A program made the translations under genes and the position numbers. 2,644 nt of DNA from Naegleria gruberi (lineage: Eukaryota). Location of the stretch: assembly GCA_000004985.1 (NCBI GenBank), contig GG739254.1; one strand, 5' to 3'. A model generated the notes under the pieces. That model did not search any database and was not told the DNA's origin. It saw nothing but the letters and a program-made list of their open reading frames with translations. Positions 21 to 2,644 of the stretch are shown here, piece by piece. Position 1 is the first letter of the stretch; every line of letters starts with the position of its first letter.

Positions 21-57
21 TATTGAGTGTCTAAAGATTTTGGCAGCTAACATGAGG
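21..57 (+). repeat. tRNA 5'-flank repeat, copy 1 (TATTGA..TAAAGATTTTGGCAGCTAACATGAGG)
   Basis: The 26-nt core at 32-57 matches 191-216 at 25 of 26 positions (A50 versus C209). An upstream TATTGA is shared (21-26 versus 182-187). The last GG of the repeat forms nt 1-2 of the tRNA. Confidence 0.6.
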
Positions 58-128
58 AACAGTAGTTCAGCGGGGAGAATATGGGGCTCTCACCCCCAAG
101 GTCGGTGGTTCAACTCCATCTTGTTTCT
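56..128 (+). tRNA. tRNA-Glu, anticodon CUC (73 nt, no intron, no encoded CCA)
   Basis: Cloverleaf folded by hand. Acceptor GGAACAG (56-62) pairs with TTGTTTC (121-127), 7 bp including 2 G-U. U8 is present. D stem GTTC (65-68) pairs with GAAT (77-80). D loop AGCGGGGA carries A14, G18G19 and A21. Anticodon stem TGGGG (82-86) pairs with CCCCA (94-98). Anticodon loop CTCTCAC (87-93) has U33, anticodon CTC at 89-91 and A37. Variable loop is 5 nt, AGGTC. T stem GGTGG (104-108) pairs with CCATC (116-120). T loop TTCAACT (109-115) has T54, T55, C56, A58 and a G53-C61 pair. Internal A-box-like TAGTTCAGCGG and B-box-like GGTTCAACTCC are present. Discriminator is T128. Confidence 0.7.
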
Positions 129-129
129 C

Positions 130-133: not shown

Positions 134-163
134 AAAAAAACACTGCCGCCATTATCAAGTTTG

Positions 164-169
164 TTTATT
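164..169 (-). promoter_or_regulatory. Candidate AATAAA polyadenylation signal for the PARP mRNA
   Basis: Minus-strand AATAAA lies about 68-73 nt downstream of stop codon 239..237 within an AT-rich 3' UTR. The signal is eukaryote-typical but not proven here. Confidence 0.3.
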
Positions 170-181
170 AGATTTGATAGC

Positions 182-226
182 TATTGATTTTAAAGATTTT
201 GGCAGCTACCATGAGGTTTCTCTTTT
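182..226 (+). repeat. Copy 2 of the tRNA flank unit with the tRNA body missing (leader+GG fused directly to TTTCTCTTTT trailer)
   Basis: 191-216 aligns to 32-57 and 217-226 (TTTCTCTTTT) aligns to 124-133. The 66 nt between them in copy 1 (58-123, the tRNA body) are absent. Copy 2 lies in the 3' UTR of the minus-strand PARP gene. Confidence 0.55.
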
Positions 227-236
227 AGAATCTTCA

Positions 237-1651
237 CTATTGTTTAATTTCAACCATAAACTTGATTGTGCATTGAGCTGAGTTATATACTATAAATTCA
301 TTATTAAGCAAGAATCCATTCTTTGCTTTTGCAAATAATGAATCATAATCTTGTCCATTATAATTTATCAAGGATTCTTCTGTGAAATCCGAAAGTGTAT
401 GATCCCAATTAGTAACTTCCAATTGTTTGCCAACATGTACATCAAATACAGCAAGATAGGCCTTATCTGAAGAACCTCCTGCCCAATAGGATCCTGTGAA
501 ACTGGTATATCCGAGAGATTTCTTGAATTTGTCAGCTTTTTTGGTTATGGAAACAGGTCAGTAATAAAATAGAAACTTACCGAAATAATTACCATGTCCA
601 AACATTCTACCATTAGCAGCAGGTCTCAATTGAAGACCATTAATCATGATGGACAAAAAGTTTGCATTTTTAGAGCCATGCCAGAACAATTCTCTCTTTT
701 GATTTCGTTTCTTTTGGACAAAATTGTCGAATAGTGTTTGAGTTTGATTATTGGTAACTCTGAAAGCTCTGTAAAACAAGTGACTATCTGAGCCCATCAT
801 CTTCTGAGGAGTTTAATTTCATCTTGTGAAGCATCCTCCACAACAAGTCCATTCTTTTTAAGGAAATCAGGTTGATCAGATTGATCATGTTTTGTAATCT
901 TGACTTGAGTAGCCATGACATCAAGAATTTCCTGCTGATCATCTAATAGTGAAGCAGCACTTTCCTTATTACTCTTATCATTAATCAAATAATCCTGAAC
1001 TTTCTTCATCTTTCTTGGAATGACAGCGTACAATTTCAGTAATTTTTCATTGAATGAATTCAGAAAATCCTCATCATTCTTGAAATTCTCATTCACCTTA
1101 TACAATTCATCCAAAATAGATTGAGCAGAGTCCAATTGTTCCTTTGTAACACTTCCAACTCCAACATTGTAATTGCTTACAATGGAAATATTCGAAAAAT
1201 TATTCAATTCTGAAATTAAACTCTTCACATCTGGACTGGAATTCTCTAAATAAATATCATCCCCTGCATTGGTCATATCAGATCCCAAATTTGTCATATC
1301 TACATAGCCTTTCTTCATCTTGGATCGAACTAAACTATCCCATTCACTCAAACTGGCTTTGATTGCAATTCCTGTGGCACCAACTCGACCATAGACAATA
1401 TGAATTTCACCATCCTTTTCAGTCATTTCATAATACTTGTTATTATTCTTGGAGGAGACCATAATTAATTTACAATATCTTCCGGCAGTGTTTGTGAAAT
1501 TTTTCACACTCGAGGAAAAGCTTCGGATTGGATGAATCGTGGAGGAAAAATTATTAACTCTCTTCATCATGCTCATGCTTCTGTTGAGCATTAGTGGTGA
1601 AATAATCTCCCGATGGGAAGCAATAGATAAAGTACAGTTTAGTTTGCGCAT
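237..1651 (-). CDS. Poly(ADP-ribose) polymerase family protein (WGR - helical/PRD domain - ART catalytic domain), about 455 aa; interrupted by one intron and one frame discontinuity
   Basis: Segment A is 1651..800, frame of ORF 797..1684, with the first ATG at 1651 in context AAAAAAATGC; the ORF-track M at 1684 is TTG. Segment B is 800..581, frame of ORF 558..800. Segment C is 535..240 with stop TAG 239..237. Family motifs: WGR-like YGRVG at 1393..1379 followed by KKGYVD. Helical-domain matches to PARP1/2 include VTKEQLDSAQSILDEL, LYAVIPRKM and VVEDASQDEIKLLRR. Catalytic residues: ELFWHGSK (HGS at 680..672), GNYF-ADKFKKSLGY (Tyr 587..585, Ser and second Tyr conserved) and LLNNEFIVY (catalytic Glu 299..297). 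The ORF-track ORFs 797..1684, 558..800 and 237..422 are pieces of this one gene. Confidence 0.85.
536..580 (-). other. Spliceosomal intron, 45 nt, phase 1 (GTAAGT ... TACTGAC branch-like ... AG)
   Basis: Minus-strand sequence is gtaagtttctattttattactgacctgtttccataaccaaaaaag. Splicing joins ...GNYF(g) to (ct)GAC..., giving the PARP-consensus YFAD motif and continuing the open frame to the C-terminal NEFIVY segment. Unspliced, the frame stops 8 codons later at TGA 560..558. Confidence 0.75.
797..803 (-). other. Frame discontinuity (-1) inside the PARP coding sequence; in-frame TGA at 799..797
   Basis: The upstream frame ends ...EIKLLRR-TGA. The downstream PARP-homologous frame (MMGSDSHLFYRAF...LFWHGS) is offset by -1 and is open only from 812. 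Both sides align to PARP1/2 (EIIRKYVKNTHATTH...), so the switch must occur within about 812-800. There is no room for a canonical intron. Confidence 0.6.
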
Positions 1652-1672: not shown

Positions 1673-1715
1673 GAAATTGATCAAGATTTTGATTGGGATT
1701 GAAATTGATTGAAAG
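1673..1715 (+). promoter_or_regulatory. Cluster of ATTGA / GAAATTGAT repeats just upstream of the PARP ATG (reads CCAAT / TCAAT on the coding strand)
   Basis: GAAATTGAT occurs at 1673-1681 and 1701-1709, and GATTGGG at 1691-1697 gives CCCAATC on the minus strand. All lie 22-65 nt upstream of ATG 1651. This is a possible promoter or 5' UTR element. Confidence 0.2.
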
Positions 1716-2277
1716 ATAACGAAAGAAATGATTTTTAATTATTAGTATTGTAAACTCTGTTAAGGTCAAATGGTAGAACTGTGAACACTGTTATGTTGAA
1801 GTTAAATCTCCCAGTTGATGATAGTATTCCACCTCATGTTTTTATTGGCGAGAAATTAGATACATGCTAATTACATTTCTTTTTTAACTTTTATTGGACT
1901 GAAATTTATTTTTTACTTTCTCATCACGGGAATGCTGATGAAACAAAAGTATGAATCTGATGATGTAACAACATCGGAAAAGATGTAGAAAATGTTTAGA
2001 ACATTGAAGTATTAATAATTAAAGAATTAAAATGTATTTCATATTTAAACAAGTTGATGATTTACTTCATATTGTATGTACTCATAATTTTTTAAATGAT
2101 GATTTATTGAATGAAGCAGGTTGTAGTGAGAAGCAAATGGAGGCATTTTTTTTTGCCTACTTTTAAAATGTTAGACAATTTTAATGGTACACACCATTAT
2201 TCGAAAGGTCAATCACTGTAGATTTTCAAGGAAGAAACCACGTGTTCGATTCTTGACCAAGGACTTTGATTATGCTT

Positions 2278-2385
2278 GAAAATTAAAAATAAACGTGAGC
2301 GTGGCCAAGTACCTAACAATCATCCATTACTAAAATTAAAAATAATTGTGAGTTGTAATGAAAATCTAAAATAAGAGAATGTGAG
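2278..2385 (+). repeat. Three spaced copies of a motif of about 22 nt, AAAATTAAAAATAA-NN-GTGAG(T/C)
   Basis: 2279-2292 and 2332-2345 are identical 14-mers (AAAATTAAAAATAA), followed by ACGTGAG and TTGTGAG respectively. A degenerate third copy CTAAAATAAGAGAATGTGAGT sits at 2365-2385, immediately before the TATA box. Confidence 0.35.
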
Positions 2386-2392
2386 TATAAAA
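2386..2392 (+). promoter_or_regulatory. TATA box (TATAAAA) upstream of the plus-strand ORF
   Basis: TATAAAA lies 41-47 nt upstream of ATG 2433. The orientation is inferred from the downstream open frame. Confidence 0.3.
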
Positions 2393-2432
2393 ACTCAGTT
2401 GCACCTTGTATGACACCAACAAGCTGACACTC

Positions 2433-2644
2433 ATGAAATTAATGATGACGATGATTGTTTCCTTCGTTATGAAGATATCACCGATAATACTCACCAAGTT
2501 ACATCCAATAACACTGCCTCAAGTCCCTCGATATTCTCACCACTCTCAACTATCCTCTATCAGGATGAAGTTACTGAGTTTCAAAATTAACACTCAATTC
2601 TGGAATCGGCAACCAACATTAATTCATATGCCATATGAAATCAA
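2433..2644 (+). CDS. 5' part of a hypothetical protein gene (runs off window end); hydrophobic N-terminus MKLMMTMIVSFVMKISPIIL
   Basis: The frame is open from the stop at 2388-2390 to the window end, which is more than 84 codons in AT-rich DNA. The first ATG is at 2433. GC content is higher than in the preceding intergenic DNA. I recognised no homolog. The Kozak context is weak, with C at -3. Confidence 0.3.
   Translation, partial: MKLMMTMIVSFVMKISPIILTKLHPITLPQVPRYSHHSQLSSIRMKLLSFKINTQFWNRQPTLIHMPYEI

What the first reader, a model, noticed from the sequence alone, without database searches (positions are those of the whole stretch)
797..812. The PARP reading frame is broken by a -1 shift inside the conserved helical domain
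The N-terminal 284 codons end at an in-frame TGA (799..797) right after EIKLLRR. The next PARP-homologous stretch (MMGSDSHLFYRAF...) is in the -1 frame, which is open only from 812. Both flanks align contiguously to PARP1/2 (EIIRKYVKNTHATTH in PARP1). The lesion therefore looks like a single-nucleotide indel within about 13 nt, not an intron. All catalytic residues downstream are intact, so two explanations are plausible: an assembly or sequencing indel, or a very recent inactivating mutation. A programmed frameshift is conceivable but nothing supports it; I see no slippery heptamer.
Basis: seen in the sequence. Interest (0 to 1): 0.55.

Follow-up and report, generated by a model that had tools for sequence, protein, structure and literature searches.

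The report
One-base deletion in Naegleria PARP copy
The broken reading frame is real in this sequence, but it is only a single missing A in a tiny leftover scaffold of the Naegleria gruberi draft genome. An intact copy of the same gene sits on a large scaffold, so this is an ordinary sequencing error or a very young null allele, not a biological mechanism.

Summary
On the minus strand, 284 codons (ATG 1651) end at TGA 799..797. The PARP catalytic domain continues in the -1 frame, which is open from 812.

The window is the whole 2644-bp Naegleria gruberi scaffold that carries NAEGRDRAFT_54926. Three intact relatives read straight through the site:
- a second N. gruberi copy on a 339-kb scaffold (NAEGRDRAFT_51615), which reads ...EIKLLKKMMGSDSH...;
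- an environmental contig with about 98.7% nucleotide identity;
- a 53%-identical orthologue.

Bacteroidota homologues also carry IKKMMG at this position. DNA alignment places the lesion exactly: CTCCTCAAGAAGATG in the intact copy against CTCCTC-AGAAGATG in the window. One A is missing at 805/806. The "RR*" of the window is therefore KKM read out of frame.

Adding the A back gives a complete 456-aa protein with WGR, PARP_reg and PARP catalytic domains and an intact H-Y-E triad. dN/dS is about 0.11 on both sides of the break. There is no slippery heptamer and no downstream RNA structure. The frame-restoring GT..AG candidates would delete conserved residues.

The lesion is therefore a non-programmed one-base deletion. 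It is either a consensus error in a leftover scaffold (slightly favoured) or a very recent null allele or copy. Only reads can decide between these. Interest is low.

The parts
806..1651 (-). PARP coding sequence upstream of the lesion (codons 1-282: N-terminal extension, WGR, PARP_reg, first residues of the catalytic domain), ending ...EIKLL
   Evidence: ORF list and translation. Pfam WGR 67-118 and PARP_reg 163-257. 100% identical to N. gruberi EFC35419.1.
805..806 (-). Site of the one-base deletion. Intact copies have CTC AAG AAG ATG; the window has CTC-AGAAGATG (one A of the AA pair is missing).
   Evidence: Pairwise DNA alignments to L001. Proteins P0001 and P0002 read KKMMG. Adding one A gives an uninterrupted 456-aa protein.
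797..805 (-). Out-of-frame codons AGA AGA TGA ('RR*'), which are AAG AAG ATG ('KKM') shifted by the deletion
581..805 (-). Catalytic-domain exon in the -1 frame ((K)KMMGSDSH...WHGS...GHGNYF plus the first base of the Ala codon)
   Evidence: Translation. Pfam PF00644 E=7.8e-23. Alignment A2.
536..580 (-). 45-nt spliceosomal intron (GTAAGT...ACTGAC...AG, phase 1) that splits GNYF|ADKF
   Evidence: Bacterial homologues have contiguous YFADKF. An intron sits at the same position in L001 (45 nt, 3 substitutions) and in the divergent orthologue L002 (42 nt).
237..535 (-). Last exon (ADKFKKSLGY...NNEFIVYN...VEIKQ) with stop TAG at 239..237
   Evidence: 98% identical to N. gruberi P0121 on the 339-kb scaffold.

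Best explanation
The window is a complete 2.6-kb unplaced scaffold of the Naegleria gruberi NEG-M draft assembly. It carries a second, ~99%-identical copy (allele or very recent duplicate) of a bacterial-type WGR-PARP gene. The other copy lies on a 339-kb scaffold. In the window copy one A of CTC-AAG-AAG-ATG is missing at 805/806. Translation therefore runs AGA AGA TGA and stops, and the catalytic domain continues in the -1 frame. Nothing is programmed. I judge it slightly more likely that the missing base is a base-calling or consensus error in a thinly covered leftover scaffold than a real mutation. On that reading the true sequence encodes an intact 456-aa PARP. Shown: the identity of the scaffold, the exact position and size of the lesion, the intact state in all relatives, and equal purifying selection on both sides. 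Inferred: that the missing base is an error rather than a real allele.
For: The scaffold identity rests on P0003, which is 100% identical with a longest contig of 2644 bp and corresponds to EFC35419.1 / NAEGRDRAFT_54926. The intact second copy in the same assembly is P0002 (EFC40626.1...EIKLLKKMMGSDSH...) together with P0121, which holds the last exon; both lie on the 339,217-bp scaffold. The single missing A is seen against L001, and adding it back gives a full-length ORF. KKMMG is conserved in Bacteroidota homologues and KRLMG in a 53%-identical orthologue, with no gap at the junction. This is the only frame-disrupting lesion in 1.37 kb of coding sequence. dN/dS is 0.12 upstream and 0.11 downstream of the break, and the catalytic triad is intact. 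This is the pattern expected of an error or a brand-new lesion. From general knowledge, not tested here: very small scaffolds of Sanger draft assemblies are built from few reads and are enriched in single-base indel errors.
Against: The scaffold is not simply a noisy re-read of the main locus. It differs from the main copy by amino-acid substitutions (E/D at 962, I/T at 367-366, K/R in VQKKRNQ) and by a structural difference at the intron. It is therefore a genuinely distinct DNA molecule that could carry a real mutation. The AA context is not a long homopolymer, where errors concentrate. No reads were available, so nothing here directly shows an error.
Confidence: 0.5

Rival explanations
1. 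The deletion is real. One allele (or one of two very recent duplicate copies) of the N. gruberi NEG-M PARP gene carries a very recent one-base deletion. It encodes a 284-aa WGR + helical-domain fragment without the catalytic domain, which is a null allele covered by the intact copy.
For: The window is a distinct haplotype or copy with its own substitutions and its own intron structure. Heterozygosity in N. gruberi is reported in the literature (PMC9928731, citing Fritz-Laylin 2010). The gene looks like an accessory, horizontally acquired gene, so loss of one copy may be tolerated. An intact second copy exists.
Against: There is no relaxation of constraint downstream (dN/dS 0.11 against 0.12 upstream) and no second lesion, so it would have to be very young. 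Neither window ORF is on record in any other public assembly. Two metagenome scans that allowed either variant found nothing.
Confidence: 0.44
2. A programmed -1 (or +2) ribosomal frameshift, or transcriptional slippage, restores the full-length PARP from this sequence.
For: The only support is that the two frames overlap by a few codons (812..797) and that a stop codon lies at the end of the overlap.
Against: There is no X XXY YYZ heptamer in CTC CTC AGA AGA TGA. The 111 nt downstream fold no better than shuffles (z=+0.5). Every relative, including the other copy in the same genome, encodes the protein in one frame, so the shift is not conserved.
Confidence: 0.02
3. A short unannotated intron removes the stop and restores the frame.
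For: Four short (38-44 nt) GT..AG combinations restore an open frame (donors at 844 or 841, acceptors ending at 804 or 801). The gene does have one 45-nt intron.
Against: The donors are GTTGTG and GTGGAG, unlike the GTAAGT of the real intron. Splicing would delete 13-15 residues (VVEDASQDEIKLL) that align without gaps to conserved columns in intron-less bacterial homologues. The same stretch is plain in-frame coding sequence in L001, P0002 and L002.
Confidence: 0.02

Closest known systems
Bacterial WGR-PARPs ('ADP-ribose polymerase' / 'WGR domain-containing protein' of Bacteroidota such as Spirosoma, Fibrisoma, Saprospiraceae; compare the Herpetosiphon aurantiacus PARP discussed in PMC4245714)
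   Same: Same WGR, PARP_reg and PARP catalytic architecture and the same length (~450 aa). 40-46% identity over about 90% of the protein (340-360 bits). The H-Y-E triad and the IKKMMG motif at the break site are shared.
   Different: The Naegleria gene has a 45-nt spliceosomal intron, a 3-residue deletion in LRPA---ANG, and its own N-terminal extension. The window copy additionally lacks one base.
Human PARP1/2/3 (clade 1 DNA-repair PARPs)
   Same: The helical and catalytic domains align. The break maps opposite PARP1 ...EAEIIRKYVKNTH..., and the triad residues H, Y and E align.
   Different: Similarity is much weaker (63 bits to the PARP1 catalytic fragment, E=2e-16). There are no zinc fingers or BRCT domain.
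Single-base indels in unplaced mini-scaffolds or haplotigs of draft Sanger assemblies, and heterozygous null alleles
   Same: One isolated 1-nt deletion, an intact twin locus in the same assembly, and no decay on either side.
   Different: Nothing distinguishes this case from the ordinary one.
Programmed -1 ribosomal frameshift sites
   Same: Only the geometry is shared: the downstream ORF is in the -1 frame and overlaps the upstream ORF's stop.
   Different: No slippery heptamer, no stimulatory structure, no conservation.

Membership tests
PARP (clade-1-like / bacterial-type WGR-PARP) | WGR + PARP regulatory (helical) + PARP catalytic domains | tested here: met
   Pfam PF05406 (22.9 bits, cutoff 22), PF02877 (19.5 bits, below the 26.8 cutoff, but aligned over profile 34-126) and PF00644 (81.5 bits). 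Full-length alignment to bacterial WGR-PARPs.
PARP (clade-1-like / bacterial-type WGR-PARP) | H-Y-E catalytic triad | tested here: met
   WHGS, GNYF and NEFIVY align to PARP1 H862, Y896 and E988 (residue numbers from memory) and are invariant in alignment A2.
PARP (clade-1-like / bacterial-type WGR-PARP) | One uninterrupted reading frame (functional gene) | tested here: not met
   In the window as given, the frame is broken at 805/806. It is met after adding one A and in the second N. gruberi copy.
Programmed -1 ribosomal frameshift | Slippery heptamer X XXY YYZ in the overlap | tested here: not met
   The overlap 812..797 reads ACTCCTCAGAAGATGA, which holds no such heptamer.
Programmed -1 ribosomal frameshift | Stable RNA structure a few nt downstream | tested here: not met
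   MFE -13.3 kcal/mol against a shuffle mean of -14.7; z=+0.5.
Programmed -1 ribosomal frameshift | Frameshift conserved in orthologues | tested here: not met
   P0002, L001, L002 and the bacterial homologues are all in one frame.
Spliceosomal intron at the break | GT..AG boundaries that restore the frame without removing conserved coding residues | tested here: not met
   Frame-restoring candidates exist, but they delete 13-15 conserved, aligned residues and have weak donors.
Decaying pseudogene | Relaxed constraint (dN/dS near 1) and/or several disabling lesions | tested here: not met
   dN/dS is 0.12 upstream and 0.11 downstream against L001, and there is a single lesion. Power is low (11 substitutions).
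Sequencing/assembly artefact | Reads disagree with the consensus at the site | not testable with these tools
   No reads or traces are available. Exact look-ups of the window ORFs and two metagenome scans found no independent copy of the frameshifted sequence.

The most novel reading that the evidence does not exclude
The deletion is real. On this reading, N. gruberi NEG-M is heterozygous for (or carries a duplicate with) a freshly inactivated copy of a horizontally acquired, bacterial-type PARP, while the other copy carries a >=170-nt His/Thr-rich insertion at the intron. The strain would then be caught in the act of losing this accessory gene.
Probability: 0.4. Interest if true: 0.2.

Novelty: already known. 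Interest (0 to 1): 0.08.

Why it matters
It matters little beyond annotation. NAEGRDRAFT_54926 is annotated as a 259-aa 'predicted protein', but it is the front part of a WGR-PARP gene truncated by a one-base deletion. Its twin on the large scaffold is split into two wrong gene models (NAEGRDRAFT_51615 and the model behind P0121). Correcting these gives one 456-aa PARP per copy. The gene itself, a Bacteroidota-like PARP with an intron in Naegleria, is a tidy case of inter-domain gene transfer, but that is separate from the frameshift.

Tried and rejected
- Alternative genetic codes (ciliate or Euplotes type). The frame changes at the break, so reassigning TGA does not help. The ORFs use CAA/CAG for Gln and have no in-frame TAA/TAG.
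- Intron at the break. I enumerated all frame-restoring GT..AG pairs and rejected them against the homologue alignment.
- Programmed frameshift. Rejected for lack of a heptamer, lack of structure and lack of conservation.
- Fetching the DNA of the 339-kb N. gruberi scaffold. Exact-protein look-ups of P0002, P0003 and P0121 returned nothing, so the two NEG-M copies could be compared only at protein level.
- Looking for an independent copy of the frameshifted allele. Look-ups of both window ORFs and two metagenome scans that allowed either variant all came back empty. This is uninformative, not negative evidence.
- The N. gruberi genome paper and the 2011 review were not held in the library. Statements about Sanger coverage and scaffold make-up therefore rest on general knowledge.

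Full report
**What is in the window**

The window is AT-rich (about 24-38% G+C). On the minus strand it carries one gene. An ATG at 1651 opens 284 codons that end ...VVEDASQDEIKLLRR, followed by TGA at 799..797. The -1 frame is closed by TAA at 815..813 and open from 812. It reads TPQKMMGSDSHLFYRAF... and continues to GHGNYF.

A 45-nt GTAAGT...ACTGAC...AG intron (580..536, phase 1) then separates GNYF from ADKFKKS. The last exon runs to TAG at 239..237.

Pfam finds WGR (residues 67-118) and PARP_reg (163-257) in the first part. It finds the PARP catalytic domain in the second part (E=7.8e-23). On the joined protein the catalytic-domain match starts at residue 280, profile position 9. The break at residue 284/285 therefore lies in the first strand or helix of the catalytic-domain model, not in the helical regulatory domain.

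**Where the window comes from**

A search of the joined protein returned three near-identical proteins.
- P0003: 259 aa, 100% identity, longest contig 2644 bp. It is N. gruberi EFC35419.1 / XP_002668163.1 / NAEGRDRAFT_54926. The window is therefore that entire scaffold, and the annotated model simply stops at the TGA.
- P0002: 375 aa, 99% identity. It is EFC40626.1 / NAEGRDRAFT_51615 on a 339,217-bp N. gruberi scaffold.
- P0001: 408 aa, 95% identity, from an ENA metagenome contig of 2094 bp, fetched as L001.

**The lesion**

P0002 and P0001 read ...DEIKLLKKMMGSDSH... and ...DEIKLLKKMMCSDSH... in a single frame.

L001 is about 98.7% identical to the window over about 1.6 kb. Aligned at the DNA level, it differs at the site by exactly one base. 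L001 has CTCCTCAAGAAGATGATG and the window has CTCCTC-AGAAGATGATG.

So one A of the AA pair is missing at 805/806. The window's AGA AGA TGA ('RR*') is AAG AAG ATG ('KKM') read one base late. Adding one A gives an uninterrupted 456-aa protein.

The intact state is ancestral:
- Bacteroidota homologues (40-46% identity) have I-K-K-M-M-G at this position, with no gap across the junction.
- A divergent eukaryotic orthologue, P0023/L002, is 53% identical and has an intron at the same position. It gives one tblastn alignment through the site with IIKRLMG.

**Rival mechanisms**

- Intron. Twenty-one GT..AG pairs restore an open frame mechanically, four of them short (38-44 nt). Their donors are GTTGTG or GTGGAG. 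They would remove VVEDASQDEIKLL, which aligns to conserved columns of intron-less bacterial proteins and is plain coding sequence in the intact copies. Rejected.
- Programmed frameshift. The overlap holds no X XXY YYZ heptamer. The 111 nt downstream fold at -13.3 kcal/mol against -14.7 for shuffles (z=+0.5). No relative needs a shift. Rejected.
- Code reassignment. This cannot repair a frame change.

**Age of the lesion**

Against L001, pS and pN are 0.016 and 0.0019 upstream of the break, and 0.054 and 0.0060 downstream. That gives dN/dS of 0.12 and 0.11. There are only 11 substitutions, so power is low. Still, there is no hint of relaxed constraint downstream and no second disabling lesion. 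The H-Y-E triad is intact.

Either the deletion is not in the organism at all, or it is very young.

**Error or allele?**

The window is not just a noisy duplicate of the main locus.
- It has its own amino-acid states: E rather than D at 962, and I rather than T at 367-366. The main copy has its own as well: R in VQRKRNQ.
- The main copy is structurally different at the intron. The last exon on the 339-kb scaffold is in a separate model, P0121 (98% identity).
- All 43 tail codons of P0002 after GNYF are compatible with being the +1 frame of P0121 residues 16-59. This His/Thr-rich stretch of at least 216 nt is absent from the window and from L001.

The two NEG-M copies are therefore distinct molecules, either alleles or a recent duplicate. 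The window has the intron structure shared with the environmental strain.

That explains why the assembler left the window as a separate 2.6-kb scaffold. It also means a real mutation is possible. On the other side, such scaffolds are built from few reads, and single-base indels are their typical error (general knowledge, not tested).

No independent copy of the frameshifted sequence could be found, but the collections searched probably do not hold N. gruberi reads.

I put the consensus error at about 0.5 and a real recent null allele or copy at about 0.44. Only reads or PCR can decide.

**Comparison with what is known**

The gene is a WGR-PARP of the bacterial type. It scores 340-360 bits against Bacteroidota proteins but only 63 bits against the human PARP1 catalytic fragment. 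Bacterial PARPs with WGR, with or without PARP_reg, plus the PARP domain are described in PMC4245714.

The frameshift itself belongs to no special class. It is an ordinary one-base deletion.

**Verdict**

Novelty is nil and interest is low.

Noticed in passing
window 56-129 (+); L001 1671-1744: A tRNA-Glu(CTC) gene lies about 110 nt downstream of the PARP stop, on the opposite strand. It is conserved in the environmental contig L001.
   Followed up: partly
window 140-230 (repeats 191-216 ~ 32-57 and 209-230 ~ 116-137): Relative to L001, the window has about 70 extra nt between the PARP stop and the tRNA. They contain a copy of the tRNA gene's two flanks joined together with the tRNA body missing (26 nt at 96% and 22 nt at 82% identity). 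It looks like a partial duplication of the tRNA locus or a footprint. It remains unexplained.
   Followed up: partly
window 237-1651 (whole gene): The Naegleria PARP is far closer to Bacteroidota WGR-PARPs (40-46% identity, ~340-360 bits) than to human PARP1 (63 bits). Yet it carries a spliceosomal intron that is conserved in a 53%-identical orthologue (L002). This suggests an old bacteria-to-heterolobosean (or reverse) gene transfer. No phylogeny was built.
   Followed up: partly
window 1480-1651 (-): The first ~55 residues (MRKLNCTLSIASHREIISPLMLNRSMSMMKRVNNFSSTIHPIRSFSSS...) form a Ser/Arg/Asn-rich extension before the conserved KLIMV motif. The L002 orthologue has a similar extension. It could be an organelle-targeting presequence. 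This was not tested.
   Followed up: no
N. gruberi 339,217-bp scaffold (proteins P0002 and P0121; DNA not available): The intact twin gene is annotated as two overlapping models in different frames. The cause is a His/Thr-rich stretch of at least 216 nt at the position of the 45-nt intron, absent from the window and from L001. This is either an insertion in the intron of that copy or a local misassembly. Both gene models are probably wrong.
   Followed up: partly
L001 411-1637: The ENA gene call P0001 reads straight through the 45-nt intron and translates its in-frame TGA as W. The caller evidently applied a TGA=Trp code to this AT-rich eukaryotic contig, which is an annotation artefact.
   Followed up: yes
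window 1700-2644: The upstream ~950 nt are very AT-rich (down to 24% G+C). They hold only short ORFs and showed no recognisable gene. L001 does not extend across most of this region.
   Followed up: no
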